Origin: an uncultured Clostridia bacterium
Lineage (GTDB): Bacteria; Bacillota; Clostridia; TANB77; CAG-508
Direction of reading: 5' to 3'
NCBI GenBank assembly: GCA_934167495.1
Contig: CAKPKP010000005.1
Span: forward strand, 19,451 to 83,450
Length of the DNA stretch: 64,000 nucleotides
Shown one piece after another: positions 1 to 13,696 of the stretch. The number at the start of each line of letters is the position of its first letter. Position 1 is the stretch's first letter. The notes beneath the pieces are model-generated. The model saw only the letters and a program-made list of their open reading frames with translations, ran no database searches and had not been told where the DNA came from. Both the position numbers and the translations under genes were made by a program.

Positions 1-566
1 GATTCTTCTATTTCTGTAAAATTACTAAATGTAGGGAATTTAAATGTGCTTAAAGTTGGCTCTACAGAATTTAAATAAGATGATATTTGATTAAATGAAC
101 TATAAAAATTCTCTACTGTTGGATTACTTAATACAACTGCATCTGCAAATACTTTGTATTGAGTACTATTTCCAGATAGTTGACTATAATTCTGCCACGT
201 ACTTTTTGCACTTTCACTCTTTAATAATGGTTGAATTTTTAACATTAAAAATATTTGATTGTTAGTATCCTTTGGATCATATGCTCTAATTGCATAATAC
301 ATTCCAGTTCCACCTGTCTCTACTGTCCAACCTTTTGGCTTTTTCATACTAAAAGCTGTGTTTGAAAAATCCTCCAATTCTATTGCTTCTTCTTTAACTA
401 CTTTTACATTTTCTTTGTTCAATATACTATTATTTGAATTATTATTTATAGCTATCTCACCTCCATTTTTTTGATTTATCAAAATTGCTAATAATACAAA
501 AATTATTATTATCAAAGCCACTATAACTATAAGAAATATTTTTTTACTTTTATTTTTTTCTTCCAT
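1..566 (-). CDS. Hypothetical membrane-anchored protein (N-terminal TM helix), 3' end outside the window. It is not in the supplied ORF track because no stop codon lies inside the window.
   Basis: Reverse-complement reading from ATG (plus coords 566..564) gives MEEKNKSKKIFLIVIVALIIIIFVLLAILINQKNGGEIAINNN... and stays open to position 1. AAGGAG RBS 7 nt upstream. Confidence 0.5.
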   Translation of the reverse strand, partial: MEEKNKSKKIFLIVIVALIIIIFVLLAILINQKNGGEIAINNNSNNSILNKENVKVVKEEAIELEDFSNTAFSMKKPKGWTVETGGTGMYYAIRAYDPKDTNNQIFLMLKIQPLLKSESAKSTWQNYSQLSGNSTQYKVFADAVVLSNPTVENFYSSFNQISSYLNSVEPTLSTFKFPTFSNFTEIEE

Positions 567-676
567 ACTTATAACTCCTTTTACTAAATATATCACATAA
601 TACTTTTTTATTTTATGTTTTTACCACTTTTTCCATGCATTTTTGGTAATTATATTTTGCTTTTAATTTACTAATA

Positions 677-1249
677 TTACATACTCTTTATATATCTATA
701 TATTTCGCCCCAGTTACTAACTTCTTTTAAATATTCATTTTGTTCTAATTTTTTCATTTCTTTATCTCTAAAATAAATTGTTTTAATACCATTTGATGAT
801 AATTTCTTACAAACCTCATATGAATCATCTATCATAAAATCAATATTTTCTTTTTGTGCAACTTCTAGTTTATCTTCTTGTTTCCAGTAATATGCGTTAA
901 ATGAAATTCCTTCTTCTTTAAACTTTGCCATTGCAACATCCTTCATTTCTTCTATCATACCTCCTCTTGCTGATATTACAACAAATTCATTTCCTTCTTT
1001 TTGCAACATATTAATTACATCTTTTGCACCTGGTATTAGTTGTGTTTGTTTTGACAATTTTAAGAAATATTTATTAACAAAATTCATCCTCTCCTCTTCA
1101 GTCCAGTCATATCTATTTCTTAAATAATGTTCATTTCTATTAATAATCCCATTTTTCTTTAATTCTATAAAATCGTATAAATCACCATAAGTTTTTAATA
1201 CTCTTTCATAATCTAGTATTACTCCATCTACATCTATTCCTATTTTCAT
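677..1249 (-). CDS. HAD-superfamily 5'(3')-deoxyribonucleotidase-like hydrolase
   Basis: N-terminal MKIGIDVDGVILD (DxDG HAD motif I). Size and motif layout resemble the NT5C/YorS-type nucleotidases. Confidence 0.5.
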   Translation of the reverse strand: MKIGIDVDGVILDYERVLKTYGDLYDFIELKKNGIINRNEHYLRNRYDWTEEERMNFVNKYFLKLSKQTQLIPGAKDVINMLQKEGNEFVVISARGGMIEEMKDVAMAKFKEEGISFNAYYWKQEDKLEVAQKENIDFMIDDSYEVCKKLSSNGIKTIYFRDKEMKKLEQNEYLKEVSNWGEIYRYIKSM

Positions 1250-1319
1250 AATTTTCCCCCTTTATTTTTTTCACTCCAACTATATATATAATATACTTTC
1301 GCCTTCTCTACCATTACTC

Positions 1320-2039
1320 CTATTTTATAGCAAGACTTCCTTCAATTCTTGATTCGATATACTTACTAATTTTAGAATCTATACTAAAGTCGGAATCAAA
1401 ACATTCATCAATAATTTGGTTAATATTTAGTTTTTTATAATTCTCCTTTGACTTTTCATTTGATGAAATAAATATATTTTTTCCGCCTATACTATGTATG
1501 TATTCAAATGCAAATTTGTCAGTTAATCCATCTCCAAAATATACAATTTCTTGTGTTTCATTATTTTCACTTTGAATTCTTCTTATAACCTCTACTTTCT
1601 TTTCATCTGTCAATAAAAAATCTATATCTTCTAGCATCTCGTTTTCTTTTTTAAAAGTTACCCCATAAATTCCATCTACTAACTTACTAATTGCTGTCTC
1701 TTCAATATAATCCTTTATACCGGAAGTAACTATATAATGCTTAATTCCTGTTTTTGAACTTTGAAATTTTTTAAAATATTCTATAACTCCATTATTAAAT
1801 TTAACGTTTTTTGCCCCTAAACAAATATTGTTTCTTGACATTATGATTCCATTTTCTCTTAAAATATCTCTATAACATTTATAATAAGAATCATATATTC
1901 CTACAGCATTACCATTTTCTATTTCTTTATTAATTCTTTTCATTAAAATTTCATCTGTATAACCAGTTTGACGTAATATTTCATATTGTGGTAATGAATA
2001 TGGAGTTAATGTGCCATCAAAATCATATATTATTATCAT
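1320..2039 (-). CDS. HAD-family hydrolase (phosphatase)
   Basis: MIIIYDFDGTLT motif I (DxDGT); later FGDGLTD-like motif III. Confidence 0.55.
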   Translation of the reverse strand: MIIIYDFDGTLTPYSLPQYEILRQTGYTDEILMKRINKEIENGNAVGIYDSYYKCYRDILRENGIIMSRNNICLGAKNVKFNNGVIEYFKKFQSSKTGIKHYIVTSGIKDYIEETAISKLVDGIYGVTFKKENEMLEDIDFLLTDEKKVEVIRRIQSENNETQEIVYFGDGLTDKFAFEYIHSIGGKNIFISSNEKSKENYKKLNINQIIDECFDSDFSIDSKISKYIESRIEGSLAIK

Positions 2040-2127
2040 TTTTTAGTCTCCCAATTATATCTTTTAGATAGATTTTATAATTGCTCATATTTTGAAATAA
2101 TTTCAATCTGTCTACAATACAGCAATT

Positions 2128-2958
2128 TTATATTTCAAATCTTATATAAGCCCTATCATCATAACTTTCTTGATTGTTATAAAAACCTCTTTCATAAGCA
2201 AATTCTTTATAACAAAGAGGATCAACTTCTTTAATATGTTTTAAATATTCTTCTGACTCCTTTAAACTACTAAATGGCTTTCTATATCCATCTGATACAA
2301 AAACAATTTCTTTTACATCAGATGGAACATCAATACATTTTATTAATTCTTTATTAGGGTTATTAAATCCATCAATCACTGCATAATCATATTTACTATT
2401 ATATAATTTATTTCTTATGTATGGTTGTCTTTTTGATAAATTCTGCACAAACTTTCCTGCAACATCTTCCTCTAGAAGTTGTTCCTCTGTATATCCTGTT
2501 GCTAAAAAATATTCTATTGTCATTATTCTTATTTTAGTATATAATTCATCAACTTCTAATTTATTTTCAAGTATATTATCACCATATAAAGCCATGCAAT
2601 CTCCTATTAACCATATTTGATTATAGTTTTTTGAATATATTATAACAGATGCAGATGGTTGGTCAGCAGCATCTCCTGATATTTCTTCAAAAATATTGTG
2701 TTTCTTATAAAACTCAAGTATATAATTATTTAAAAAATCTATACTTTGATAACAGTCAAACTTATTATTTAACTTTGGGATAGCTTCTAATAAAACATCA
2801 CATATTATTTTTCCTAATTTTTTATTTTCATACTTAAACGGGCTTTGAGAAGTAACTCCATCTATTACAGCTATAAAATCTTCTGTAACACAAATACCAT
2901 CTTCACATAATTCTTCCTTATTAAATTTTCCTCTTAAAAATTTTTCTATAACTCTCAT
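2128..2958 (-). CDS. Divergent PP2C-like (SpoIIE-like) phosphatase domain protein
   Basis: Spacing of AVIDGVTS, WLIGDCMALYG and VFVSDGY resembles PP2C motifs (DGxGG / GDSR / SDG). Low similarity, tentative. Confidence 0.3.
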   Translation of the reverse strand: MRVIEKFLRGKFNKEELCEDGICVTEDFIAVIDGVTSQSPFKYENKKLGKIICDVLLEAIPKLNNKFDCYQSIDFLNNYILEFYKKHNIFEEISGDAADQPSASVIIYSKNYNQIWLIGDCMALYGDNILENKLEVDELYTKIRIMTIEYFLATGYTEEQLLEEDVAGKFVQNLSKRQPYIRNKLYNSKYDYAVIDGFNNPNKELIKCIDVPSDVKEIVFVSDGYRKPFSSLKESEEYLKHIKEVDPLCYKEFAYERGFYNNQESYDDRAYIRFEI

Positions 2959-2995
2959 ATCTGCTCCTCTCTTCTATAATTTGCCATTTATTAAA

Positions 2996-3327
2996 CTAAT
3001 CTTTATAATTTAACAACTCTAGTCTTAACTTATCATATACCTTAGTTTCAAGTTTTGATTTTTTCTTTAATTCTTCAAATTTATTATCCATAAGTGTAAA
3101 CTCTTCTCTTGCACTCATTGCATGATCTGATATACAAATTTTTCCTATAAAATTAGAAAACATAAATCTATAAATAAATGCACATAAATCCTTTTTATTA
3201 ACACAATTTTCATATTCACCTTTAGGAAGTATTTCATATCCTAGTTTTTTTAAGACATCATACCCTTCGATAATCGCATCCATAAATTTGAGCCAAGTAC
3301 ACCAGCACCAATAATTAATATTCTCAT
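2996..3327 (-). pseudogene. Frameshifted and truncated remnant of an NAD(P)-binding Rossmann oxidoreductase (ketopantoate-reductase-like N-terminus)
   Basis: Upstream of the 95-aa ORF, a second frame reads MRILIIGAGVLGSNLWMRLSKGMMS* (GxGxxG Rossmann motif) with a GGAGG RBS. The two frames together total about 110 aa, far shorter than a full-length enzyme. Confidence 0.4.
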
Positions 3328-3362
3328 TTTACCTCCTTCTTTTTCATATACTATTATATTTT

Positions 3363-4256
3363 TTATCTCACCAAAACTCCATTAAAAAATTGTTCTTGAA
3401 ATGCAATCTGTGCATATATTTCATCATCACTTGGAATATTCACATCACTACGGATATTCCCTTCTTCATCACAAGGAACTACAATCCATTTGGTTTCATT
3501 ATCATCATATCGATGATATACTGCAATTACTTTTCCTGTATATTCCGTTACAACTGAATTCTCCCCCAAAAGATAAATATCCTGCTCCGCTCCATCGCCA
3601 CCTTTTACATCAGTAACATATCCGTAATTAATAGGATAAATTATATTTTTATGTTTTGGATGAAAACTTCCAATAGGACGATCTATTTTTCCTCTTACTA
3701 CTTGACCTATGACATCACGATATCTATCTAAAGGTATAGGATTTTTCTCAACTTCAAAAATATCACCAATACTCAAACAGCATTCACCACGATCATACAT
3801 TTCTTTAATTTCTTCCAATGTAAGCCATTTTGTTTGAATTACTTCTTTTGTTGTAGCTCTTTGTAAATCTGGTTCTTCTGTTATCTCAAAATAATAAGAA
3901 TCTCTTATCCAGTTATATCGGCATCCATGATAAGTCATTGCAACTTTTGTAGCAAGAATTGTTGCATTTTCTGGTTGTAATGTGATTCCTACTTCCTCAA
4001 ATACTTCTCTCAAAGCAGCATCTAAGCTATTTTCTCCTAATATGGAATGTCCCTCAACTGTTTCCCATTTCAAAGGATCTCTGTCTTTATCTGCAGAGCG
4101 CTGAGACACTAAATATTTTCCGGTCTTAGTATTTTTAATAAATACCATAACCCACATATGAAATTCATCTTCCAAAAGATTTCCTTGTTCACCACGAACA
4201 CACTTTTTTCCTGTTCTTTTCCTATCTCTTGTATACACGTCCCACAATTCACTCAT
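3363..4256 (-). CDS. NUDIX hydrolase fused to a family-I inorganic pyrophosphatase domain
   Basis: Nudix box GHSILGENSLDAALREVFEEVG in the N-terminal half. The C-terminal half has YPINYGYVTDVKGGDGAEQDIYLLG and IPSDDEIYAQIAFQEQFF, which match the PPase motifs YPxNYGxI...DGDPxDVLV and AQIAHFF. Local GC is visibly higher than the flanks. Confidence 0.7.
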   Translation of the reverse strand: MSELWDVYTRDRKRTGKKCVRGEQGNLLEDEFHMWVMVFIKNTKTGKYLVSQRSADKDRDPLKWETVEGHSILGENSLDAALREVFEEVGITLQPENATILATKVAMTYHGCRYNWIRDSYYFEITEEPDLQRATTKEVIQTKWLTLEEIKEMYDRGECCLSIGDIFEVEKNPIPLDRYRDVIGQVVRGKIDRPIGSFHPKHKNIIYPINYGYVTDVKGGDGAEQDIYLLGENSVVTEYTGKVIAVYHRYDDNETKWIVVPCDEEGNIRSDVNIPSDDEIYAQIAFQEQFFNGVLVR

Positions 4257-4475
4257 TGCTAATCCATATTCCTTTCTACTTTCTATTTCTTCTATTTTAT
4301 ATCATAAATCAACATTTTTTTATAGTCTTTTATAAATGGTTTCAAAAATATTCTTTCTTACGCTTATGTTTCAATATTTTAAGTGTTGCATGATGCACAC
4401 TATTCTGCCTTAAGTCTCTTTTTTTAGTTCATTCAATCTAAAATATTCTATATTACATATTTTCCAGTATTTTTG

Positions 4476-6092
4476 TTAATTATTTATACTTTTTAATTCA
4501 TTCCATCTATCTATAGACATCAAAACCTCTCTTGGCTTACTTCCTTGATAACCAGATATAATTCCTCTTTCTTCCATCTGATCAATAATTCTTCCTGCTC
4601 TTGCATAACCTATTTCAAATCTTCTTTGTATAAATGAAGTAGAAGCTTGTCCTGTTTCTATTACTGCATCTATGGCATCCATTAAAAAAGGATCTGTATC
4701 ATCATCAATATCTAATTTATGATTATTTAATATTTGAAATCTATCTTCATTATATCCATTTTTTTCTTCTGATTTTATATAATTAGTAACTTTTTCTAAC
4801 TCATTATTAGAGATAAAAGCACATTGATATCTTTTTAATTCATATATACCAACTTCTTTAAAAAACATATCTCCATTTCCTAATAGTTCTTCTGCTCCTA
4901 TAGCATCTAAAACTACTTTTGAATCAATTTGTGATGGAAGTCTAAAAACTACTCTAGTAGGTATATTGGCTTTTATTGTTCCGTTTATAATATTTATTGA
5001 AGGTCTTTCAGTAACTATTATGATATATATTCCAACAGCCCTTGCTTTCTGAGTTAGTATGTAAATATATTCTTCAATTTCCTTTTTATCTGTTTCTATT
5101 AAATCAGCATATTCATCTATAATAAGTATAATATTAGGCAATTTCTCACAATCATTATGTTTTTCATTATATTCTTCTATATTCTTTACGCCTTTATTTT
5201 TAAGCATTATATATCTATTCTGCACCTCTTGACAGAGCCATGCCAATGCTCCTAAAGCCTTTCTTGTATCAGTTATAACTGGTACTAATAAATGTGGTAT
5301 TTTATTATATAATGATAATTCTACAATTTTAGTATCTATCATTAAAAATTTTACTTCATTTGGTTTTGCTTTATATAAAATACTATTTATTAATATATGT
5401 AAAAACATACTCTTTCCAGATCCTGTTGTTCCTGAAATTAACATATGGGATGTTTTTTCAATATCCATTATTTTATATTTTCCATAAATATCTTTTCCCA
5501 ATCCAACTGTAAGTTTAGATATACTATTTTTAAATTCTTCAGCTTTTATAATTTCTCCTAATTTAACTATCTCTTTATCTCTTCTTTCAGTTTCGATACC
5601 TAATAATTGCTTTTCTGGTATTATTTTAATATCTATAATTTTTGTTCCTAAATTTAAAGCTAAATCATCTTTTAGTTTCTTTACTTTATTAACAGCAATG
5701 CCTTCATCTAATCTTATTTCATATGTTACAATTATTGGACCTATTGATACCTCTTCTACTTTAGCTTTCACTCCAAAGCTATATAATGTTCTTTGCAATT
5801 TTTTAGCACTTTCTACTAATATTTTTTTACTTTCTATTTGATTGAAATTTGTTTTCACATCTAATAATTCTAATGGTGGTAAATTATATTCTATTATTTC
5901 TGTTTCACTTTCTAGTGTTTCATTTTGACTATTATTTTGTTCTTTTTCTGTTAGTATTATATCTTCTTTTTGGTTTTCTTTAATTTCTATAACTTCTTGT
6001 TTAAATAATATTTCTTCATTTTCTTTTATTGCTTCAGCTACTAAATCGTTATTTTTTTTATTTTTTATAAATTTAAAAAATCTTTCTATCAT
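4476..6092 (-). CDS. FtsK/SpoIIIE-family DNA translocase ATPase, soluble form without an N-terminal membrane domain, with a C-terminal gamma winged-helix
   Basis: Walker A GTTGSGKSMFLH. The C-terminal DPFLMDAIDAVIETGQASTSFIQRRFEIGYARAGRIIDQMEERGII resembles the FtsK gamma domain. No hydrophobic N-terminus. Confidence 0.75.
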   Translation of the reverse strand: MIERFFKFIKNKKNNDLVAEAIKENEEILFKQEVIEIKENQKEDIILTEKEQNNSQNETLESETEIIEYNLPPLELLDVKTNFNQIESKKILVESAKKLQRTLYSFGVKAKVEEVSIGPIIVTYEIRLDEGIAVNKVKKLKDDLALNLGTKIIDIKIIPEKQLLGIETERRDKEIVKLGEIIKAEEFKNSISKLTVGLGKDIYGKYKIMDIEKTSHMLISGTTGSGKSMFLHILINSILYKAKPNEVKFLMIDTKIVELSLYNKIPHLLVPVITDTRKALGALAWLCQEVQNRYIMLKNKGVKNIEEYNEKHNDCEKLPNIILIIDEYADLIETDKKEIEEYIYILTQKARAVGIYIIIVTERPSINIINGTIKANIPTRVVFRLPSQIDSKVVLDAIGAEELLGNGDMFFKEVGIYELKRYQCAFISNNELEKVTNYIKSEEKNGYNEDRFQILNNHKLDIDDDTDPFLMDAIDAVIETGQASTSFIQRRFEIGYARAGRIIDQMEERGIISGYQGSKPREVLMSIDRWNELKSINN

Positions 6093-6110
6093 AATTTTTC
6101 CTTTTTATTT

Positions 6111-7607
6111 TTATATACTTACATATTTTTGATTTTTATGATTTGGTTTTTCTGGTATAGTCATCTGCAACAATCCTTTTTCTAATAATGGTTTTAAATA
6201 TAGCATTGTGAAATTTCTTGTATGTTTATATTCCATATATTCCATTATCTCTTTTTTGCTATGCGGTTCATTACAAAATTCTAATATCTTTATTTCTTGC
6301 TCATTTAACTTAGTCGGTTCTTGGTCGGTTCTTGGTCGGTCTTTTATTTCATTTTCAAATCCCTCATGCATAAATATAGTTGTAATAAAATAATCTCTTG
6401 TATCATTTGTTTCAAATTCTGGTTCTTTTGAACCATTATTTTTTAAAGCTCTTTTAATTTTGGGAACTCCTGTATTTCTGCCCTCTGTTAATTTCAATTC
6501 TTTCAAAAATTCACCAATTCTACGATTTCTATATTTTCTTGCTATCATATTTTTATCTTCAATTGATTTTTCGCTTATTGAGCGATCTGGTCCGGGATAG
6601 CTTACAATATGAATTCTATCTTCCATTATTCTTACTTCCACAGGTTCTCTTACATCATATCCTCTGTGATATACTGCATTTACAAGGGCTTCTTCAATTG
6701 CTTGATAAGGATAATTGAAAAATCTTTCTGCTTCTGCTTGTCCTTCAATTTTTAGTATTCTTTCTTCAATTACTGTATTTCTAATAAAAGTTAATGCACT
6801 TTTTATCATACTATCTATTGGTCCTTTAAATATTCTCTCTGTCATATTATCACCTTCAGGACCATTTCTTAAATCTACTACTTCTATTTGTGAATATGGA
6901 AAGAATTTTTGTGGTTCATCATTAAAGAACATTAAACCAACATTTAGTGGTTTCATATATTCTGGTGTTCCATCAACAATTCTCATACTTTTGCATAAAT
7001 TCATAAAATCCATATTTTCAGATTCTTTTAATAAATCACTCTTAATTTCATATAAATAATTTTGAATTAATGGCAATTTCAAATCTCTAATTTCCGCTTC
7101 ATGATTCATCCTATCGTCAAAAGGAATTGTTCTTGCCATATCATATAATTCTTTTTGCTCTGTTTCTGTTGCTTTTACTGTATTGGACATTTTTCTTATA
7201 TAATATGAATATCCTCTGGAAAAATCTTTATCTAATGTTGTTGGACACTTGTATGGTCTTGTTTGTCCTCCAAAGCACCATACTACTAATATATTTTTCT
7301 CTTTATATTTTGCAACATCTACTATTGGTGTATATGATGGTTGTATTAATTTGCATTTTGCTAGTAATTCTTTTTGAATTTTATCTATTTCTGATAATTC
7401 CAGTCCTGTTATTGGAATTTTAGGTCTCCCGTTTTCTTCTTCGACACCAATTAATATATATCCTCCACCCCAATTATCTATATCATTTGCAAATGCACAA
7501 ATTGTATGTAATATTGGTTCTGGATTCCAATTTTTCTTTAATTCTAACCTTGCATTTTCGACAATGTTCTCATTTAGTATATTCTCTATACTTGTAGGTA
7601 ATTTCAT
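6111..7607 (-). CDS. AlbA_2 (Schlafen-like) plus HATPase_c_4 ATP-binding putative DNA-binding protein (COG2865-like)
   Basis: N-terminal ICAFANDIDNWGGGYILIGVEEENG (AlbA_2 signature). Later EEALVNAVYHRGYDVREPVEVRIMEDRIHIVSYPGP (HATPase_c_4 signature). C-terminal HTH-like tail. Confidence 0.65.
   Translation of the reverse strand: MKLPTSIENILNENIVENARLELKKNWNPEPILHTICAFANDIDNWGGGYILIGVEEENGRPKIPITGLELSEIDKIQKELLAKCKLIQPSYTPIVDVAKYKEKNILVVWCFGGQTRPYKCPTTLDKDFSRGYSYYIRKMSNTVKATETEQKELYDMARTIPFDDRMNHEAEIRDLKLPLIQNYLYEIKSDLLKESENMDFMNLCKSMRIVDGTPEYMKPLNVGLMFFNDEPQKFFPYSQIEVVDLRNGPEGDNMTERIFKGPIDSMIKSALTFIRNTVIEERILKIEGQAEAERFFNYPYQAIEEALVNAVYHRGYDVREPVEVRIMEDRIHIVSYPGPDRSISEKSIEDKNMIARKYRNRRIGEFLKELKLTEGRNTGVPKIKRALKNNGSKEPEFETNDTRDYFITTIFMHEGFENEIKDRPRTDQEPTKLNEQEIKILEFCNEPHSKKEIMEYMEYKHTRNFTMLYLKPLLEKGLLQMTIPEKPNHKNQKYVSI
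6313..6345. repeat. 11-nt tandem repeat (tcggttcttgg), about 2.6 copies, inside the 3' part of the 6111..7607 CDS
   Basis: Direct reading: tagtcggttcttggtcggttcttggtcggtctttt. Confidence 0.6.
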
Positions 7608-7688
7608 ACTTTCAACTTCCTCTCAATCATAAAATATTTTAAAACTTTACTTTTTCCTTTGATATTTTACTTTCAAATTTCTTTTGTT

Positions 7689-8561
7689 TTAATAAGTTTC
7701 TTCTCTTAAAACGCCTAAACCCAAATAAAATTTCTGATTATTTAATAATTTTTCTTTTATTTTCTTTTGTAATGTTGTATTTTCAGATAATTCTTTATAA
7801 TCATTACATTTATTTATTCCATATACAAAATTCATAATATCATTAACACAATCTTCTCCATCTTTAATATCAAACAAATTACGAAAAAGTGAAATATTTG
7901 AATTTTTATCAAGTATATTATAAATCTGATTGCTTAATAACCATGAATTACAGATATACTTAGTTTTATCTAAATTATATATTTGTTTTAATATATTTTT
8001 TGACTCTTTTATTGAATCCTTTACTTCTATTAAATCCAATTTTTTACCTTTAGGTATATGAATCTTTATTATAGAAATATTTTTTTCTGTATCATCATAT
8101 TCATATTGTAATCTTCCTATTTCTATAATTCTAACTCTAATGAAATATACTGCCCATAGCATTTGCGATATTCTCACACCGTTATACTTTCTATATATCA
8201 AGTCACTTTCAAAGCATTCTTTTACTCTACTCTTATGAATATTAACTTGATTTATATCTAATCTGTATTTATCAATATTATTTTTATGTAATTCATACCC
8301 CAATATTATCATTAAATTTGTTACAAATGGATTTACATTATTTCCAAATAATTCATTAATATCTTTTATTTCCCATAATTCTTTTATTTTAATAAAATCA
8401 CTACAATATAAAGTTTTATACACATCATCAAATAATTTTTTATAATACTCACTTTGCTTTATTTCCTCGGCGCACCTATAACATTTTTCTTTGTATGATT
8501 TATCTATATTATAAAATTCAAATGCTTCATCAATTTTATTTTTACTAATCATTTTTATCAC
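7689..8561 (-). CDS. Hypothetical protein (AT-rich accessory)
   Basis: 290-aa ORF with no motif I can assign. Confidence 0.4.
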   Translation of the reverse strand: MIKMISKNKIDEAFEFYNIDKSYKEKCYRCAEEIKQSEYYKKLFDDVYKTLYCSDFIKIKELWEIKDINELFGNNVNPFVTNLMIILGYELHKNNIDKYRLDINQVNIHKSRVKECFESDLIYRKYNGVRISQMLWAVYFIRVRIIEIGRLQYEYDDTEKNISIIKIHIPKGKKLDLIEVKDSIKESKNILKQIYNLDKTKYICNSWLLSNQIYNILDKNSNISLFRNLFDIKDGEDCVNDIMNFVYGINKCNDYKELSENTTLQKKIKEKLLNNQKFYLGLGVLREETY

Positions 8562-8883
8562 CTACTTAATAAAATTTTAATTTTATTAGTTTAATATTAT
8601 TTTCCAAAATTTTTTCAATATAATACTGTTACAAACTCACATGTATCGTTTCTCTCTAGTTACAGTGTTATTTTAATGTTGTTTATTGCCTGTAGCAGTA
8701 AATTTATCTTTGCTATTTCTTTTTTCATGCTACCATTATATTACTCTGTTTTTATAAAATCAATTCCCTTTTTATTCCCTGTTTTCTATTTCTTATATAA
8801 TTTAAAATGTGCTTTTAAAATTTAGTTAATGTTGTGCCATAGCACATGCATTTTAACCTTGACTTGATTTTATAAAGCACATA

Positions 8884-8925
8884 AAAAACCCCTTAGTAAT
8901 TATAATTACTAAAGGGTTTTACTAC
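8884..8925 (-). terminator. Bidirectional rho-independent terminator downstream of the kinase gene
   Basis: aaaaaa-CCCCTTAGTAATTAtaATTACTAAAGGG-tttt: perfect stem flanked by A-run and T-run. Confidence 0.6.
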
Positions 8926-8965
8926 AATTTAATCTAGCTTTTGGAATTACCATTAGCTAATTTAA

Positions 8966-10729
8966 TCAACCATAGTTATAGATATTGTTCTTATTGTAAA
9001 TTTTGAAACCACGCCCAGTAAACTGAAGTCTAGAGCTTTCATCAACAACACTACAATTGAATTCCTTTGCAGTATTTTTAACGATATTAGTTCCGATAAT
9101 CTTGCCATCTGCCGGATCATAAATAGTGTTGTTGTAAAAATCAATATTTCCCAGTGGCTGAGCATTATACATGATAACATCATCATCATATTCAATGCAA
9201 TTCTTGTTAAATACTATTGTACGATACTTACCATTGGAAAGCTGATATACAAACAACCATTTCTGAGTAACACGATCATACTTGATAGCATACTCATTAA
9301 TTCTTCCATTGTAATCTACCTTGAAAGTATAATCCGGAGTTGTAATTATTGCAGTCTTAGGATACATAGATACGATAAATACTTTGCCATCATCCGATGC
9401 TTCAAAGAACGGATTATACACCTGTCCCAAATAGTTCGGCATATTTCCACTCTTAGTGATAGAAAGTCTGACCAAATTATTGCCTTTATCCACATAATAC
9501 AGGTTTCTATCTTTTACAAGATAGTTAGACTTATGCATACGTTCGATAGTGGCTGTAACCTGATTATTCTCATCATACACCTGAATTGAATCATCATCAA
9601 TAACAAAGACAACCTTACCATCATTAGAGAAATCTACTCTCTTGCCTCTTTCAACTACAAACTTTCTTCCAGTTTCAAAATGAACAGCCTCATTGCTTCT
9701 GTTAAGATAATGCACATTGCTTAATACGTATGCACAATCCACACCAGCAAATATAACTGTAATCTGAGGTCCATTTGCAGTCTGGGTAACCTTTGCCACA
9801 ATAGGTGCTATCTTGACCTTCGCATTCTCGTTACAAAGTGAACACTCATTGAACTTTGAGTAATAATAAATATCGTGAATGCTACAATACTTCATATTTT
9901 TAAGAAGTTCCTGAAGATCTGCTGTGATGTCAATTTTCTTTCCCTGCTCAAAGATTTCAAGAAAATCCTTTTCAAGCTGAGGCGACATCCATTTCCAACT
10001 GCCGATAATTTTTGGAATTTTAATATCTCCCTTGTGCTTGCCCACAATTGATATTTTCCTTTTCATTCTCTCTATAGTAGAAAGGTTTTTATCAGGAAGA
10101 TATGTTCCACCGAAAGGATGGATTCTCGTAAGCATATTGAATGCAAGAATAGCAAAGTTGTAGTTTTCATTTTCCATAGAAAAATTAATACTGCCACTTG
10201 AAGAATAACTGTCGGGGCATGTGAAAAGTTCTGTATAAGCGTCGGGAGTATATTTTCCTTCAATCCCCCAACTATCAACATCAATAAAGTAATCACACTT
10301 TCCATTAATCTGGAAGTTATAATCACTTACATCTCCGACAATAATGCCTGTAGAGTGCAATTTGCCTAAATCTTTGCCTAAATCTGTAATTATCTGCAAT
10401 ACATCCTGATTTGACAAGTGTGCAGCAGTAAGATACTTTGGTTTAGTAAGCATATGCAAATCTTCGACATCAACAAGTTTTCTCATTGCATAACCAACAA
10501 ACTTGCCCTGAACTGTTACCACTTCTTCCGGACCAATCACATTTTTAGGCAACTGATCTTTAATTGAAATGAAATAGTTTACCTTTTCCTTTTTCCGTGC
10601 CAAATCTACATTAGGTTTAAAAACCTTGATAACTCTTTTCGAGTCATATTCGTATATAGTCGCTTCTCCGCCTTCTGCCAATTTGTTAAGGCTTTCAACA
10701 CGGCTTCGACTAGTAAAATTAATAGCCAT
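8966..10729 (-). CDS. Hanks-type Ser/Thr protein kinase with a roughly 400-aa C-terminal beta-propeller-like region (kinase of a TerY-P-like triad)
   Basis: Gly-loop LAEGGEATIYEY, beta3 Lys VIKVFK, catalytic loop LHSTGIIVGDVSDYNF (D-x4-N), DFG-like FIDVDSWG. The C-terminal half shows repetitive beta-strand-like segments. Confidence 0.65.
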   Translation of the reverse strand: MAINFTSRSRVESLNKLAEGGEATIYEYDSKRVIKVFKPNVDLARKKEKVNYFISIKDQLPKNVIGPEEVVTVQGKFVGYAMRKLVDVEDLHMLTKPKYLTAAHLSNQDVLQIITDLGKDLGKLHSTGIIVGDVSDYNFQINGKCDYFIDVDSWGIEGKYTPDAYTELFTCPDSYSSSGSINFSMENENYNFAILAFNMLTRIHPFGGTYLPDKNLSTIERMKRKISIVGKHKGDIKIPKIIGSWKWMSPQLEKDFLEIFEQGKKIDITADLQELLKNMKYCSIHDIYYYSKFNECSLCNENAKVKIAPIVAKVTQTANGPQITVIFAGVDCAYVLSNVHYLNRSNEAVHFETGRKFVVERGKRVDFSNDGKVVFVIDDDSIQVYDENNQVTATIERMHKSNYLVKDRNLYYVDKGNNLVRLSITKSGNMPNYLGQVYNPFFEASDDGKVFIVSMYPKTAIITTPDYTFKVDYNGRINEYAIKYDRVTQKWLFVYQLSNGKYRTIVFNKNCIEYDDDVIMYNAQPLGNIDFYNNTIYDPADGKIIGTNIVKNTAKEFNCSVVDESSRLQFTGRGFKIYNKNNIYNYG

Positions 10730-10741
10730 TTCAATACCTCC

Positions 10742-11668
10742 TTAGAAGCAGATTGAAATATCATCATGGAACATCTCATTTTTAAGATTATTCCTATTAA
10801 TGAGTTTTTCAATCTGAGGTCCTTTACCTTCATGTAAAAACTTCATCAATTTTGACTTTTCAAGCTCCAGAAGATTTTCCGAATATCTTAATCCATCGCT
10901 CGCAACTCCGACATTAGAATATTCGGATTTGCTAAAACGAGTTACCTTAAAGCTCACGCCTTCTTTGTACTCTTTGAGAGCGGATTTGTCTGTTATAAAA
11001 TTGTAGATGTAGTAGCAAGGATATTCACCATCATGGAGTTCATCAAAGAAGATTCCTTCCTCATTTTCCTTAATGATGTATCCATCACCACAGCTATATA
11101 CAACAAACTCATCCTCTAACTCAAAACATACCAGAATCGTAAAACAGTAATTCTGAAAAATGAAAGATGTATCACTACAGAGCTCCAGCATCTTCTCAAA
11201 AATGCTATTTACAATTTCGATAAAGTTTTCCTCACATATTGATTCACCTTTATCAAAGTATTCTTTTGATTTTCTGGCAAAAAGTTGCCCGAAAAGCCTT
11301 GTTCCAACCTCAGAGTGTTTACCAGAGCCACAACCATCTGTTACAATCTTCATATTAAGAAGATTAAATGCAAAATCATGATTATTCATGTTTGCAAATT
11401 TATGGTCCGAGCCCATTTTACAAACTCTGATAGTTGTCCTTTTAGGATGTTCCTTTGATGCAATTTCTTCAGATTCGACTGTTTCGAGTTCAGTTGCAGT
11501 TACACTCTCGGTTTCTACAACTACCTGGGTAGTATTCTTTGTAGACTCACTTTCTACCACAGTAGTTTCACTACTTACATTGGTTGTTTCTGTTATTTCC
11601 GAGACTTTTTCATCCATAGGTGGATTTTTGGCAGTCCGGAAATTTTCTAAAATTGATTTCATATACAT
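10742..11668 (-). CDS. PP2C-family protein phosphatase with a disordered N-terminus rich in Ser, Thr and Glu
   Basis: VTDGCGSG, VYSCGDGYII and VGVASDGL correspond to PP2C motifs. About 80 aa of low-complexity TETTNVSSETTVVESESTK... at the N-terminus. Only 12-nt gap to the kinase gene. Confidence 0.65.
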   Translation of the reverse strand: MYMKSILENFRTAKNPPMDEKVSEITETTNVSSETTVVESESTKNTTQVVVETESVTATELETVESEEIASKEHPKRTTIRVCKMGSDHKFANMNNHDFAFNLLNMKIVTDGCGSGKHSEVGTRLFGQLFARKSKEYFDKGESICEENFIEIVNSIFEKMLELCSDTSFIFQNYCFTILVCFELEDEFVVYSCGDGYIIKENEEGIFFDELHDGEYPCYYIYNFITDKSALKEYKEGVSFKVTRFSKSEYSNVGVASDGLRYSENLLELEKSKLMKFLHEGKGPQIEKLINRNNLKNEMFHDDISICF

Positions 11669-11677
11669 TACCTCCTA

Positions 11678-11712
11678 TAGAAAAAGAGGGATTGCACTGC
11701 AACCCCTCTCAG
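11678..11712 (-). terminator. Internal stem-loop plus T-run (attenuator or partial terminator) between the vWA and PP2C genes
   Basis: Minus-strand reading gagaggggttgcagtgcaatccctctttttc: stem AGAGGG(g)TTGCA / TGCAA(t)CCCTCT followed by TTTTT. Confidence 0.4.
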
Positions 11713-11751
11713 ACTTTAGTTATTGTTGTTAACTTGCAGATTGTCTACTTC

Positions 11752-12453
11752 TTATACGTCGAAGAATCCGCCGTCATCGTTTCCGCCTGCACCAGAACTT
11801 GCCTTCTTAGATGCTGAAATAGCACTCTTGGAAACAAGATCGATTACTCTACGGAGTTCACTCTCATCATTGCTTACTTCCTTAACATTGTTCTTCTTAA
11901 CACCGATAGAATCAGCAACTCCGAAAGCTCCCTGTCCAAAAGCGATGAAAGCTACCGTGATTTCCTTAGAAATCAAATCCTGAATAGCCTGACGTGCATC
12001 GCTTGCACGATACTGTGAACCATAATCTTCTCCATCCGACAGAATAATCAAACATGCACGGGCATTTGTACCATTGTTTTTCAACTGATCCATATAGTCC
12101 AGCATACGCTGACGTCTGTCGATGATAGCATCATACAATCTTGTACAACCGCCTGCAGAATAATCAGTATTGAAATCCTCAGGGGCTACATAGCCACCGG
12201 TCTCAATTGTAGATTCGAAAACAGTTTTGCTTACAAGCATTTCATCGGACTGTTTGGAATTTGAGATTGCTTCCTTGTAGTGCTCAAGGCACTCGCACAT
12301 TGCTCTCTCATACGGATCCATTGAGCCGCTGCCATCGATAAGAAAATCGACAAGCATAACGCTTGGGGATACGACGTCATCAACGTCCATGTTTGTTGCA
12401 TAGGTTTCGTCCAAACCGTCGATTGTAATGTTGTCCAAATATTCTTCGCTCAT
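11752..12453 (-). CDS. vWA (von Willebrand factor A) domain protein, TerY-like
   Basis: MIDAS motif LVDFLIDGSGSM (DxSxS) near the N-terminus. Length and order (vWA, PP2C, kinase) match the TerY-P triad. Confidence 0.7.
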   Translation of the reverse strand: MSEEYLDNITIDGLDETYATNMDVDDVVSPSVMLVDFLIDGSGSMDPYERAMCECLEHYKEAISNSKQSDEMLVSKTVFESTIETGGYVAPEDFNTDYSAGGCTRLYDAIIDRRQRMLDYMDQLKNNGTNARACLIILSDGEDYGSQYRASDARQAIQDLISKEITVAFIAFGQGAFGVADSIGVKKNNVKEVSNDESELRRVIDLVSKSAISASKKASSGAGGNDDGGFFDV

Positions 12454-12476
12454 AGTGTAATCCTCCTCATTATTGT

Positions 12477-13391
12477 TTAAAACTGAATATCTGTTGACTT
12501 GGCAAACTTGATGCCGTAGGAATTCTTAAAGTTGTCAAACGCTGCCACCGTATCTGCTTCAAAACCAGTAATTGGAGAAGTACAATCCTCCAAAATGGTA
12601 ATCTTCTGAGTAACCTCAGGACGGTTAGCAAAGTGTTCTGCGATCTGTTTAACTGATTCCATAAGGCAATGGCTTGCCGCTTCACCTACAACGTAGATCT
12701 CATCATACTTCTCGATAGCCGTGAGAACAGGCGTATTCAAGAAGTTTTTCTTGCTGTATTCCGGCTTAATGATACCATACATTTCACTGTACGGATCTTC
12801 ACCCTTAGGTATCATGTGGTCAACACACTTACGAGCTACAGAATGGAAATAAACCATCTTTGCGAATTCGTTTTCGAGTGAGTTGCCCTCTGTACCTTTG
12901 ATGCAGTGATAAGGCCAGATACAAAGCTGTTTCTTACCGGCTCCGACCTTTTCCAGTTCTTTCAGATACTGAATAGAATCTTTCGGGTTACCAATAACGG
13001 GACGCCAACGATTGTTCACAACATCATCGTAGGTAATAACTGTATAAGGGTCCGGATGATCACCTGCAGAATTTACCCACCAACAAGGATGGAAAATCTG
13101 GTGCGCGATATGAGTATCCAGACTGCACATAATACTTGAAATTCCCTCAATGTTGTTGTAAATGAAACGTGTCATACGTTCCACATCGCCGATAGATCCA
13201 GGAACTGCCAAAGCACCGCCTTCGATGAAATCCTTCTGAACATCAATGCACAAAAGCAAACGCCGAGGAGAATCATCAATTGATGCCGTAAACCGTTCCT
13301 GTTCTGCCATAGCAAAGATGGCGTTCATGTCTGTTGCAGAATGCTGACCAATCTTGGTAACATCTACAATCTGTTCGTAATTTGTCTTCAT
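12477..13391 (-). CDS. Isochorismatase-family cysteine hydrolase, nicotinamidase (PncA)-like, enlarged to 304 aa
   Basis: LLLCIDVQKDF (catalytic Asp), later Lys, and VVGEAASHCLMES (catalytic Cys). CSLDTHIAHQIFH matches the PncA metal-binding D-x-H-x3-H...H pattern. Confidence 0.6.
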   Translation of the reverse strand: MKTNYEQIVDVTKIGQHSATDMNAIFAMAEQERFTASIDDSPRRLLLCIDVQKDFIEGGALAVPGSIGDVERMTRFIYNNIEGISSIMCSLDTHIAHQIFHPCWWVNSAGDHPDPYTVITYDDVVNNRWRPVIGNPKDSIQYLKELEKVGAGKKQLCIWPYHCIKGTEGNSLENEFAKMVYFHSVARKCVDHMIPKGEDPYSEMYGIIKPEYSKKNFLNTPVLTAIEKYDEIYVVGEAASHCLMESVKQIAEHFANRPEVTQKITILEDCTSPITGFEADTVAAFDNFKNSYGIKFAKSTDIQF

Positions 13392-13538
13392 GTGAATACC
13401 TCCTTGAACTAAAGTTGATTAATAAATTTTTGCTAGTCAGTTGACTGCTGTTTGCCTCAAATCTCATTGTGTACCTCCTTAAATGTAAATGAGACAACAG
13501 TTTTGAATGCAAAGCAATCATTTATTGACATGTCAGTT

Positions 13539-13567: not shown

Positions 13568-13635
13568 TAGTTATGTTAATTTTTACAATTTTCTTTGATA
13601 TTTGCACTATTTGTTAAGTTTACATTTTAAATAAA

Positions 13636-13664: not shown

Positions 13665-13696
13665 ACAAAATAAAATTATTTAGAAAATATTAACTC

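What the first reader, a model, noticed from the sequence alone, without database searches (positions are those of the whole stretch)
3363..4256. NUDIX hydrolase fused to an inorganic pyrophosphatase domain, in a second GC-rich patch
A clear Nudix box is followed in the same polypeptide by family-I PPase motifs (YPxNYGY...DG...D, AQIAxxF). I do not recognise this as a common fusion. A Nudix enzyme that releases a pyrophosphate-containing product, coupled to PPi hydrolysis, could process NAD, ADPR or (d)NTP-derived signals. Together with the NAD genes 5-12 kb away, and with phage NMNAT-Nudix fusions as a precedent, this suggests nucleotide-signal or NAD turnover chemistry. The gene is GC-richer than its neighbours, so it may have been acquired separately.
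Basis: seen in the sequence. Interest (0 to 1): 0.65.

Follow-up and report, generated by a model that had tools for sequence, protein, structure and literature searches.

The report
Nudix hydrolase fused to mini-pyrophosphatase module
The gene is a real fusion of a Nudix hydrolase with a stripped-down relative of inorganic pyrophosphatase, but this fusion is common in gut Clostridia, was noted in print in 2017, moves between bacteria on small integrative elements, and shows no tie to phages or to the nearby NAD genes.

Summary
The ORF at 3363-4256 (minus strand, 297 aa) is real. Residues 1-175 form an IDI/YfcD-like Nudix domain with a canonical Nudix box. Residues about 182-297 are a true but reduced homologue of family-I inorganic pyrophosphatase. 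This roughly 110-aa module keeps the equivalents of Y51, Y55, D65, D70, D97, D102 (as Glu) and K104, and probably D42/R43. It lacks the hairpin that carries K29/E31, has F/N in place of Y141/K142, and here has Ala in place of the water-activating D67. The module is promiscuous (1408 representative clusters). It occurs alone, auto-named "inorganic diphosphatase", or fused to GNAT, Nudix, kinase and nucleotidyltransferase domains. Iyer et al. 2017 described this hairpin-less "InPase" group and its NUDIX/GNAT fusions in Lachnospiraceae. Orthologues are mostly from Lachnospiraceae, and none was found in phage collections. Some are 99-100% identical between genomes whose adjacent RumA proteins are about 40% identical, as leading-edge cargo of rumA-targeting integrative elements. 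The window copy is a solo CDS. Its higher GC lies in codon positions 1-2. The NAD genes sit in a compositionally different patch and never accompany orthologues. Verdict: a real fusion of a known but biochemically uncharacterised kind. PPi hydrolysis is unproven. Interest is modest.

The parts
3363..4256 (-). Complete CDS of the Nudix-InPase fusion protein (297 aa plus stop codon)
   Evidence: ORF list. A 100%-identical protein occurs on 30 contigs, and more than 120 full-length orthologues share the same ends. Nucleotide similarity to the orthologue in L006 (82%) is confined to 3358-4263.
3732..4256 (-). N-terminal Nudix-fold half (residues 1-175), IDI/YfcD-like subfamily with an N-terminal beta-hairpin
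   Evidence: Pfam NUDIX covers residues 35-151 at 54 bits. The best NCBIfam hits are a Deinococcus-type Nudix hydrolase and IPP isomerase, both far below their cut-offs. Foldseek matches 2i6k (IDI-1) and 2fkb (YfcD). The same Nudix subfamily appears in the divergent fusions P0133, P0165, P0236 and P0262 at 26-41% identity.
3984..4052 (-). Nudix box G69-I91, GHSILGENSLDAALREVFEEVGI (catalytic and metal-binding motif)
   Evidence: Read directly from the sequence. G69, G74, R83, E84, E87, E88 and G90 are invariant in 121 orthologues, and position 75 is E or D.
3714..3731 (-). Start of the inter-domain linker (the lower-confidence stretch, residues about 152-181, extends into the Nudix-half coordinates)
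   Evidence: In the AlphaFold model the per-block pLDDT is 76-83 here, against more than 90 in the module.
3366..3713 (-). C-terminal hairpin-less type-I pyrophosphatase-like ('InPase') module, residues 182-297
   Evidence: Profile against PDB: 37 of 37 hits are family-I PPases. Foldseek matches 5tea, 3ld3, 4z70 and 1ipw. There are 1408 representative clusters. In 97 copies D192, H199, Y207, Y211, G212, D221, D226, R249, D252, K256 and E288 are invariant, and R193 and N210 are each kept in 96. The model shows strand 186-193 followed directly by the NYGY strand 210-218, with no hairpin between them.
3579..3638 (-). Core PPase motif Y207-PINYGY...D221-GAEQD226 (E. coli Y51, Y55, D65, [D67 to Ala223], D70)
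   Evidence: hhalign alignment to E. coli PPase residues 47-73 at 93% probability. HMMER alignments to 5tea, 3d53, 3d63 and 4xel. Position 223 is A in 86, E in 16 and S in 15 of the orthologues, and E in 76 of 97 copies family-wide.
3489..3512 (-). R249-YDDNET-K256 loop: D251/D252 correspond to D97, E254 to D102 and K256 to K104, and the loop is two residues shorter than in PPases
   Evidence: HMMER alignments to 5tea and 3d53. R249, D252 and K256 are invariant and E254 is present in 92 of 97 copies. Position 255 is D or E in 85 of 97 copies but Thr here.

Best explanation
This is an ordinary bacterial gene, though one that moves horizontally. It is not a phage gene. It encodes a two-domain phosphoanhydride hydrolase of a known but uncharacterised kind.

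Shown: the N-terminal half is an IDI/YfcD-like Nudix hydrolase with a fully canonical catalytic box. The C-terminal 110 aa is a member of the hairpin-less 'InPase' branch of family-I pyrophosphatases. It keeps the acidic metal-binding cluster (D221, D226, D252, E254) and the phosphate-contacting residues (Y211, K256, probably D192/R193). It has lost the K29/E31 hairpin and Y141/K142. In this orthologue group it has also lost the water-activating Asp (Ala223), although the adjacent, conserved E224 remains.

Inferred: the Nudix domain cleaves a diphosphate bond in an unidentified nucleotide-like or diphosphate metabolite. The InPase module then binds and probably hydrolyses the phosphoryl-containing product. 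That product would be PPi if the substrate is an NTP-type compound, or otherwise a terminal phosphate on a bulkier leaving group. The residues lost are, as I recall, the ones that hold the leaving-group phosphate in canonical PPases.

The physiological role is most likely metabolite housecleaning or detoxification. In many gut Clostridia the gene is carried, together with a SAM methyltransferase, as cargo at the edge of rumA-targeting integrative elements. The window copy is a solo gene in a variable region downstream of rumA.
For: Domain identities. A conserved, functional-looking site in the module: 12-13 invariant or near-invariant polar residues across 97 copies that share only 45-55% identity. 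A functional link between Nudix and the module: at least two independent fusions, in both domain orders and with unrelated Nudix subfamilies. Other partners are also nucleotide- or small-molecule enzymes: GNAT, P-loop kinases, PfkB, NTP_transf_2, a CCA-type nucleotidyltransferase, GrpB and HIT. In Priestia the stand-alone module lies next to a GNAT gene. Literature: Iyer et al. 2017 describe hairpin-less InPase domains fused to NUDIX and GNAT in Lachnospiraceae and propose processing of a nucleotide-like substrate or clearance of PPi. Bacterial setting: PolC, RumA and similar genes are in the window, and 46 genome loci are mostly Lachnospiraceae. Mobility: fusion proteins are 99-100% identical where the RumA proteins are 36-45% identical. 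The 97-98% identical DNA begins 250 bp upstream of the gene, inside the rumA 3' end. The element genes are NikA-like, RepA_N and a large serine recombinase.
Against: No biochemical data exist for any member, so the substrate of either domain is unknown. The module scores below Pfam's PPase threshold and fails the DxDxxD signature. Ala223 replaces the residue that activates the nucleophilic water in family-I PPases, so the module may be a poor PPi hydrolase or none at all. GNAT, kinase and methyltransferase partners do not release PPi, which argues against simple 'PPi clearance' as the module's general role. IDI-like Nudix enzymes often act on non-nucleotide diphosphates and release Pi rather than PPi (my own knowledge, not tested here). 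No conserved operon partner or riboswitch points to a pathway.
Confidence: 0.55

Rival explanations
1. The C-terminal module is not catalytic, at least in this orthologue group. It would be a metal- or phosphate-binding domain, or an oligomerisation domain derived from the oligomeric PPase fold. Its job would be to assemble, localise or allosterically regulate the Nudix enzyme and the module's many other partner enzymes.
For: The water-activating Asp is Ala in 86 of 121 orthologues and varies among A, E and S. The otherwise acidic position 255 is Thr. K29/E31 and Y141/K142 are absent. The extreme promiscuity of partners, including enzymes that neither make nor use PPi, is typical of regulatory or scaffolding modules. 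pTM of 0.81 suggests a fixed arrangement of the two domains.
Against: The metal ligands D221, D226 and D252, together with K256, R193, H199, R249 and E288, are conserved across very divergent copies. That is more than a scaffold would need. Stand-alone 107-aa forms are extremely abundant, so the module has a function on its own. E224, next to position 223, is conserved and could take over as the general base.
Confidence: 0.25
2. The gene is a conflict or resistance cargo of mobile elements. The Nudix-InPase enzyme would destroy a nucleotide-derived immune signal in a newly entered host, or a nucleotide-like toxin or antibiotic.
For: The gene lies at the leading edge of rumA-targeting integrative elements that spread among gut Clostridia. 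Iyer et al. place hairpin-less InPase domains in phage and conjugative polyvalent proteins, and next to the tunicamycin-resistance protein TmrB. Neighbours in some loci are GNAT and APH-GNAT genes. The window region contains defence-like genes: a protein resembling the SspH C-terminus, an AlbA_2 protein and a PDC-S34-like HAD protein. An unidentified Lachnospiraceae Nudix hydrolase conferred trimethoprim resistance in a functional screen.
Against: PADLOC gives only a generic 23.7-bit Nudix hit. The fusion is absent from phage collections. Many orthologues sit among housekeeping genes such as HtrA, HD, RumA and UDG. The trimethoprim Nudix cannot be linked to this family because no sequence was available.
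Confidence: 0.13
3. This is the first reader's view: the enzyme turns over NAD, ADPR or related signals, works with the NAD genes 9-14 kb away, and is analogous to the phage NMNAT-Nudix fusions.
For: NAMPT/NadV-type (442 bits), Prs-like, PncA-like and NadE genes are indeed present at 12477-18305. Nudix enzymes commonly hydrolyse ADPR or NADH (general knowledge).
Against: Seven unrelated genes lie in between. The NAD patch has a different composition (GC3 28-43% against 18%), so the two regions were acquired separately. No NAD gene neighbours any of the 39 orthologue loci examined. The protein has no NMNAT domain. The Nudix half resembles IDI/YfcD-type rather than ADPR-pyrophosphatase-type enzymes. 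The fusion is not found in phages.
Confidence: 0.06
4. The PPase resemblance is a coincidental motif match or an annotation artefact.
For: The Pfam score is below the gathering threshold.
Against: The profile search hits only PPases (37 of 37). hhalign gives 93% probability. The fold match has probability 1.0. 48 of 92 family members hit PF00719, the best at 2.4e-12.
Confidence: 0.01

Closest known systems
Hairpin-less type-I 'InPase' domains of Iyer, Burroughs, Anand, de Souza and Aravind 2017 (J Bacteriol 199:e00245-17, PMC5512222), including the NUDIX and GNAT fusions they cite from Lachnospiraceae (WP_051639333.1)
   Same: OB-fold core homologous to type-I PPase, with no beta-hairpin after the first strand and a conserved acidic metal-binding cluster. 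Fused to NUDIX, found in Lachnospiraceae, and sharing partners such as GNAT and P-loop kinases.
   Different: The paper centres on the versions found in phage and conjugative polyvalent proteins. This one is a simple two-domain cytosolic-type protein that was not found in phages. I could not retrieve WP_051639333.1, so orthology to the cited example is not verified. This orthologue group also has Ala at the D67 position and Thr at position 255.
Family-I soluble inorganic pyrophosphatase (E. coli Ppa, yeast IPP1; Pfam PF00719)
   Same: The same core fold and the motifs YPxNYGY and DGxxxD. The equivalents of D42/R43, Y51, Y55, D65, D70, D97, D102 (as Glu) and K104 are retained.
   Different: About 110 aa instead of 160-215. 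There is no K29/E31 hairpin and no E20. Y141/K142 are F/N and D67 is Ala. The score is below the Pfam cut-off. The module has its own additional invariant residues (H199, R249, E288). It is fused to, or works beside, other enzymes rather than acting as a free-standing hexameric housekeeping enzyme.
IDI-type and YfcD-type Nudix proteins (human IDI1, PDB 2i6k; E. coli YfcD, PDB 2fkb)
   Same: These are the best structural matches for the N-terminal half. They share the N-terminal beta-hairpin and the W-x-x-x-x-G-H context before the Nudix box.
   Different: This protein has a canonical hydrolase Nudix box. It has Glu where IDI has its catalytic Cys (TVEGHS against SVCGHP). NCBIfam IDI scores 34 bits against a cut-off of 127, and YfcD 21 against 152. 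It is therefore neither an isomerase nor a YfcD equivalog.
NadM-type NMNAT-Nudix (ADPR pyrophosphatase) fusions of bacteria and phages
   Same: A Nudix domain fused to a second nucleotide-handling domain.
   Different: No NMNAT (cytidylyltransferase-like) domain is present. The Nudix subfamily is different. There is no conserved NAD-gene neighbourhood. The fusion is not found in phages.
PPi-releasing Nudix enzymes (MutT, NudB) acting in trans with cellular PPase
   Same: This is the reaction logic the fusion would embody if its substrate is an NTP-like compound: NTP is split into NMP and PPi, and PPi is then split into two Pi.
   Different: Those enzymes are single-domain and rely on a separate canonical PPase. 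NCBIfam scores for MutT and NudB models are far below their cut-offs.

Membership tests
Nudix hydrolase superfamily (PF00293) | Nudix box GX5EX7REUXEEXGU | tested here: met
   G69-I91, GHSILGENSLDAALREVFEEVGI, fits every position, and the key residues are invariant in 121 orthologues.
Nudix hydrolase superfamily (PF00293) | Profile score above the Pfam gathering threshold | tested here: met
   54 bits against a cut-off of 21.1, over residues 35-151.
Nudix hydrolase superfamily (PF00293) | Alpha/beta/alpha Nudix fold | tested here: met
   The AlphaFold model matches 2fkb, 2i6k, 3hhj and 1x51 with Foldseek probability 1.0.
Nudix hydrolase superfamily (PF00293) | Hydrolysis of a nucleoside-diphosphate-X or other diphosphate substrate | not testable with these tools
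   Needs enzymology. No equivalog model reaches its cut-off.
Family-I soluble inorganic pyrophosphatase (PF00719) | Profile score above the Pfam gathering threshold over most of the domain | tested here: not met
   21.2 bits against a cut-off of 23.5, and only profile positions 29-107 of 153 are matched.
Family-I soluble inorganic pyrophosphatase (PF00719) | Signature D-x-D-x-x-D (E. coli D65, D67, D70), in which the middle Asp activates the nucleophilic water | tested here: not met
   The sequence is D221-G-A223-E-Q-D226, with Ala at the middle position. Among orthologues this position is A in 86, E in 16 and S in 15. The role of yeast Asp117 is given in PMC11210485.
Family-I soluble inorganic pyrophosphatase (PF00719) | Metal-binding Asp residues D65, D70, D97 and D102, plus K104, Y51 and Y55 | tested here: met
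   They correspond to D221, D226, D251/D252, E254 (a Glu for Asp change in a loop two residues shorter), K256, Y207 and Y211. All are invariant or nearly so across 97 module copies.
Family-I soluble inorganic pyrophosphatase (PF00719) | Substrate-binding K29, E31, E20 and Y141/K142 | tested here: not met
   The N-terminal strand and hairpin are absent: the module starts at residue 182, and strand 186-193 leads straight to the NYGY strand. The helix motif AQIAFQEQFFN has F and N where PPases have Y141 and K142 (sequence).
Family-I soluble inorganic pyrophosphatase (PF00719) | PPase OB-fold core | tested here: met
   Foldseek matches 5tea, 3ld3, 4z70, 1ipw and others with E values of 1e-5 to 1e-4 and probability 1.0.
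Family-I soluble inorganic pyrophosphatase (PF00719) | PPi hydrolysis activity | not testable with these tools
   No member of the hairpin-less group has been assayed in the literature I could search.
Hairpin-less InPase module (Iyer et al. 2017) | [quoted passage not shown] | tested here: met
   Homology. In the model, strand 186-193 is followed by a 16-residue loop and then strand 210-218, with no hairpin. The module is 107-116 aa, while all PDB PPases hit are 167-214 aa.
Hairpin-less InPase module (Iyer et al. 2017) | Four conserved acidic metal ligands | tested here: met
   D221, D226 and D252 are invariant, and E254 is present in 92 of 97 copies.
Hairpin-less InPase module (Iyer et al. 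2017) | Occurs fused to, or next to, NUDIX, GNAT and P-loop (TmrB-like) enzymes | tested here: met
   Pfam census of 92 proteins: GNAT in 17, NUDIX in 10, plus AAA_18, AAA_33 and Zeta_toxin. A GNAT gene neighbours the module in Priestia.
Type-1 isopentenyl-diphosphate isomerase (IDI) | Catalytic Cys in the CGH motif, and an equivalog score | tested here: not met
   The sequence is E-G-H (TVEGHS) where IDI has C-G-H (alignment to 1ow2). NF002995 scores 34 bits against a cut-off of 127.
NMNAT-Nudix (NadM / NARP2-type) fusion | An NMN adenylyltransferase domain joined to an ADPR-pyrophosphatase-type Nudix domain | tested here: not met
   The only Pfam families with E below 0.001 are NUDIX and, below its threshold, Pyrophosphatase.
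Known anti-phage defence systems (PADLOC) | Match to a defence-system component model, with the partner genes nearby | tested here: not met
   The only hit is PDC-S07 at 23.7 bits over the Nudix region, which is generic.

The most novel reading that the evidence does not exclude
The hairpin-less InPase modules would not be PPi hydrolases at all. They would form a distinct class of metal-dependent phosphohydrolases with a remodelled leaving-group pocket. The Nudix-InPase pair, carried at the entering edge of rumA-targeting integrative elements, would be an anti-defence or anti-toxin enzyme. It would dismantle a nucleotide-derived immune signal, or a nucleotide-like antibiotic, in two steps.
Probability: 0.1. 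Interest if true: 0.7.

Novelty: new member of a known kind. Interest (0 to 1): 0.3.

Why it matters
The window gene itself is ordinary. It is one more copy of a fusion that is widespread in gut Clostridia and that was noted computationally in 2017. What remains open is the chemistry of the 107-aa hairpin-less PPase-like module. It is very abundant in gut Firmicutes (1408 representative clusters, and the scored set saturated at 8000 proteins). It is routinely auto-annotated as 'inorganic diphosphatase', although it lacks several residues that canonical PPases need. It is repeatedly recruited next to Nudix, GNAT, kinase and nucleotidyltransferase enzymes. If it is a genuine minimal PPase, it would define the smallest catalytic core of the family. 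If it acts on something else, thousands of annotations are wrong. The finding that the gene travels at 99-100% identity on small integrative elements between bacterial families also suggests a selectable phenotype that would be worth testing.

Tried and rejected
1. Promoter and terminator scan of 500-4700: 31 promoter-like sites against 30.4 expected, and no terminators, so it is uninformative.
2. Rfam search for a riboswitch that might name the substrate: nothing in window 1-9000 at E up to 1, and nothing relevant in 12 orthologue loci. Two earlier calls failed on size limits.
3. The AFDB50 fold library was not available.
4. hhalign of the module profile against E. coli PPase aligned only 27 columns. 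The mapping of D97, D102 and K104 therefore rests on HMMER alignments to PDB chains, and the D42/R43 mapping rests on inference. One HMMER alignment (6n1c) instead pairs D192-R193 with D33-K34.
5. Naming the host organism failed. The clusters for the fusion protein, RumA and the FtsK-like protein carry no names, and the GTDB scan found no copy closer than 80%. The host is an unnamed gut bacterium of about 28% GC, also seen in Hadza metagenomes.
6. Trimethoprim-resistance Nudix from Lachnospiraceae 7_1_58FAA: no sequence is given, so it cannot be linked to this family, and I dropped it.
7. Ancestral rumA-fusion synteny as evidence of vertical descent: rejected. The shared DNA starts inside the rumA 3' end, and fusion identity is decoupled from RumA identity, so the adjacency reflects an integration site.
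8. A search for a rumA remnant or the element's methyltransferase near the window copy found none.
9. GC content as evidence of recent transfer: rejected after the codon-position analysis.
Full report
**1. The observation**

The ORF 3363..4256 lies on the minus strand and encodes 297 aa. A 100%-identical protein occurs on 30 metagenomic or MAG contigs, including Hadza gut samples and GCA_977038395.1, all with the same neighbours.

The Nudix box G69-I91 (GHSILGENSLDAALREVFEEVGI) fits GX5EX7REUXEEXGU at every position. Its key residues are invariant in 121 orthologues. Pfam NUDIX scores 54 bits against a cut-off of 21.1.

The C-terminal PPase resemblance is weak for the single sequence. Pfam PF00719 gives 21.2 bits, below the 23.5 cut-off, and covers only profile positions 29-107 of 153. 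phmmer against the PDB gives a best E of 7.8e-4. The homology is nonetheless real:
- A profile of 44 module copies hits only family-I PPases in the PDB (37 of 37, best E = 6.9e-07).
- hhalign aligns YPxNYGY...DGxxxD to E. coli residues 47-73 with 93% probability.
- 48 of 92 family members hit PF00719, the best at 2.4e-12.
- The AlphaFold model (pLDDT 83.8, pTM 0.81, module above 90) matches PPase crystal structures with Foldseek probability 1.0. Its N-terminal half matches IDI-1 (2i6k) and E. coli YfcD (2fkb).

**2. Anatomy of the C-terminal module**

I mapped the module onto E. coli numbering.

| E. coli residue | Window protein | Status |
|---|---|---|
| Y51 | Y207 | kept |
| Y55 | Y211 | kept |
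| D65 | D221 | kept |
| D67 | A223 | lost |
| D70 | D226 | kept |
| D97 | D251/D252 | kept |
| D102 | E254 | Glu, in a loop two residues shorter |
| K104 | K256 | kept |
| D42/R43 | D192/R193 | probable (inferred; one HMMER alignment pairs them with D33/K34 instead) |
| E20, K29, E31 | none | absent with the hairpin |
| Y141/K142 | F/N | lost |

These assignments rest.

In the model, strand 186-193 leads through a 16-residue loop straight to the NYGY strand 210-218. The beta-hairpin that carries K29 and E31 in canonical enzymes is therefore absent, as is E20. The helix AQIAFQEQFFN has F and N at the Y141/K142 positions.

The review PMC11210485 states that yeast Asp117, the middle Asp of the signature and the equivalent of E. 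coli D67, activates the nucleophilic water. It lists D115, D120, D152, Y93 and K56 as active-site residues. The metal-binding core is intact. The water-activating Asp and several substrate-binding residues are not.

Across 97 divergent module copies, D192, H199, Y207, Y211, G212, D221, D226, R249, D252, K256 and E288 are invariant, and R193 and N210 are each kept in 96 of 97. This points to a working metal/phosphate site, not a decayed relic. Position 223 is Glu in 76 of 97 copies family-wide. In the close orthologues it is A in 86, E in 16 and S in 15. The adjacent E224 is conserved and could compensate.

**3. The module is a widespread, promiscuous domain**

An exhaustive HMMER search with residues 170-297 found 1408 representative clusters (708 at E of 1e-10 or better). 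Among 96 full-length module copies, 65 are C-terminal, 16 are N-terminal and 15 stand alone.

Partners found by Pfam are:
- GNAT acetyltransferases (17 of 92) and NUDIX (10 of 92)
- P-loop kinases (AAA_18, AAA_33, Zeta_toxin) and PfkB
- SAM methyltransferases
- GrpB, HIT, CN-hydrolase and NTP_transf_2
- a CCA-type nucleotidyltransferase with HD and methyltransferase domains, and an NDP-sugar epimerase

A profile search of the 5.8-billion-protein set saturated: 7999 of the 8000 scored candidates passed. The top hits are 107-aa stand-alone proteins that NCBI names 'inorganic pyrophosphatase' or 'inorganic diphosphatase'. In a Priestia plasmid the stand-alone gene lies directly upstream of a GNAT gene.

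Nudix fusions occur in both domain orders. The Nudix-to-module fusions share the same IDI-like Nudix subfamily (26-41% identity). The module-to-Nudix fusions use an unrelated MutT-like Nudix. The two domains have therefore fused at least twice independently.

**4. Prior knowledge**

Iyer et al. 2017 (PMC5512222) describe exactly this group. They report type-I 'InPase' domains that lack the beta-hairpin between the first two core strands. [quoted passage not shown] They propose either processing of a phosphoester bond in a nucleotide-like substrate or clearance of PPi.

Literature searches found no biochemical or structural study of the group. Every PDB hit is a full-size PPase of 167-214 aa.

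**5. Distribution and mobility**

The window is a low-GC bacterial chromosome carrying PolC, a RumA-like methyltransferase and other core genes, nearly all on one strand. Close orthologues (70-80% identity) occur in 46 genome loci. Most are gut or rumen Lachnospiraceae, with scattered copies in Treponema, Prevotella, Faecalibacterium, C. butyricum and Acutalibacteraceae MAGs.

None of the phage searches found the fusion:
- IMG/VR with the protein as query: no relative.
- GenBank phages by tblastn: seven records, none covering both domains.
- BFVD structures: TMq of 0.32 or less, single-domain matches only.
- The module profile found six IMG/VR loci; five show no Nudix box, and the sixth is cut off by the contig end.

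Neighbour clustering shows no universal partner. A RumA-like gene is upstream in 11 loci and a SAM methyltransferase is downstream in 9. Elsewhere the neighbours are GNAT, APH-GNAT and UDG genes.

Fusion proteins are 99-100% identical between genomes whose adjacent RumA proteins are only 36-45% identical, for example Jutongia against an Acutalibacteraceae genome. The 97-98% identical DNA begins about 250 bp upstream of the gene, inside the rumA 3' end. It runs through the fusion gene and the methyltransferase. Downstream lie NikA-like, RepA_N, HTH, ORF6N and large serine-recombinase genes. The gene pair is therefore leading-edge cargo of rumA-targeting integrative elements.

In the window, similarity to these orthologues (82% nucleotide identity) is confined to the CDS. 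There is no methyltransferase and no rumA remnant. The window's own rumA lies 18.7 kb upstream on the same strand, with accessory genes in between.

**6.

GC content: the gene has 33.7% GC against about 25% for its neighbours. The excess is at codon positions 1 and 2 (49% and 34%). GC3 is 18% against 10-17% in the neighbours. Composition therefore reflects the conserved protein sequence, not recent import. Past transfer is better supported by the contrast between 75-79% fusion identity and 33-47% RumA identity to the same genomes.

NAD genes: a PncA-like gene, a NAMPT/NadV-type gene (442 bits), a Prs-like gene and NadE lie at 12477-18305. They sit in a patch with GC3 of 28-43%. Seven unrelated genes separate them from this gene. 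None recurs beside any orthologue.

PADLOC gives the fusion protein only a generic 23.7-bit Nudix hit. No riboswitch precedes the gene in the window or in 12 orthologue loci.

**7. Mechanism**

Shown: an intact Nudix catalytic motif, and a PPase-derived module with a conserved metal/phosphate site but without the canonical water-activating Asp, the K29/E31 hairpin and Y141/K142.

Inferred: the Nudix half cleaves a diphosphate bond in an unidentified nucleotide-like or diphosphate metabolite, and the module binds and probably hydrolyses the phosphoryl product. As I recall the Heikinheimo structures, the residues lost are those that hold the leaving-group phosphate in canonical PPases. The residues kept surround the electrophilic phosphate and metals M1 and M2. 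A terminal-phosphate hydrolase with a different leaving group is therefore as plausible as a true PPase.

The main rival is that the module is a non-catalytic binding or oligomerisation domain in this orthologue group. The element-cargo context keeps a conflict or resistance role alive at low probability. The NAD/phage reading is not supported.

**8. Verdict**

The fusion is real, bacterial and horizontally mobile. It is a new member of a known, computationally described but biochemically uncharacterised kind. Interest is modest (0.3). The open and testable question is what the very abundant 107-aa 'inorganic diphosphatase' module actually does.

Noticed in passing
window 8966-18305: A compositionally foreign patch (GC 35-44%, GC3 28-43%, against about 13% in the flanks). 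It holds a 587-aa protein with weak Bud32-type kinase similarity, PP2C and VWA proteins, a PncA-like 304-aa protein, a NAMPT/NadV-type enzyme (PRK09198, 442 bits) next to a short divergent Prs-like protein (97.5 bits, below its 113 cut-off), and a divergently oriented NadE. The NAMPT plus Prs-like pair resembles both bacterial nadV-prs salvage clusters and, as I recall, the phage NARP1 (Adps plus Namat) NAD-reconstitution pair.
   Followed up: partly
window 4476-7607: A 538-aa FtsK-like protein with alpha, motor and gamma domains whose Pfam hits start at residue 71, much shorter than I recall for chromosomal FtsK. Its best PADLOC hit is the C-terminus of SspH (189 bits). Next to it is a 498-aa AlbA_2/Schlafen-HATPase_c_4-Fic_C protein that hits pAgo-associated models. 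Together they could be a defence-island segment.
   Followed up: partly
window 1320-2039: A 239-aa HAD-IB-like phosphatase matches the PADLOC candidate defence system PDC-S34 at 91 bits over the first half of the model. It lies downstream of the fusion gene together with two unknown proteins (95 and 276 aa, no family hits) and a second HAD-like gene. Short intergenic gaps suggest possible co-transcription, but none of these genes accompanies orthologues elsewhere.
   Followed up: partly
L006-L010 (fusion gene at 8001-8894 in each; the element region continues to about 15100), and L023, L026, L029: A family of small rumA-targeting integrative elements in human-gut Clostridia. The gene order is: rumA 3' end, Nudix-InPase, SAM methyltransferase, NikA-like, RepA_N, a small ORF, an Xre-type HTH, ORF6N and a large serine recombinase. 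In L010 a second serine-recombinase gene (653 aa) lies directly upstream of the fusion gene, where rumA sits in L006-L009. The cargo pair is 97-100% identical across bacterial families.
   Followed up: partly
window 19971-22757: A YhcG/DUF1016 PDDEXK nuclease (349 aa) and a 514-aa protein with no family hit lie directly downstream of rumA. This is where integrative elements sit in related genomes, so the 514-aa protein could be an unrecognised recombinase or an island boundary gene.
   Followed up: no
L060, L061 and L063 (IMG/VR contigs), module ORFs at about 2930-3320: Stand-alone copies of the module on viral contigs lack the otherwise invariant His199-Pro200 (DRPMGYKDDFDNVYPINYGY). This suggests a distinct viral subgroup with an altered site.
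   Followed up: no
literature: PMC3827270: [quoted passage not shown] The paper gives no sequence, so whether it belongs to this fusion family is unknown.
   Followed up: no
L057 4992-5864 (Lachnospira eligens ATCC 27750 chromid NC_012780.1): A divergent 290-aa paralogue of the fusion (WP_012740636.1, 36% identity, annotated only as 'NUDIX domain-containing protein') sits in a cultured type strain. This would be a convenient experimental entry point.
   Followed up: no
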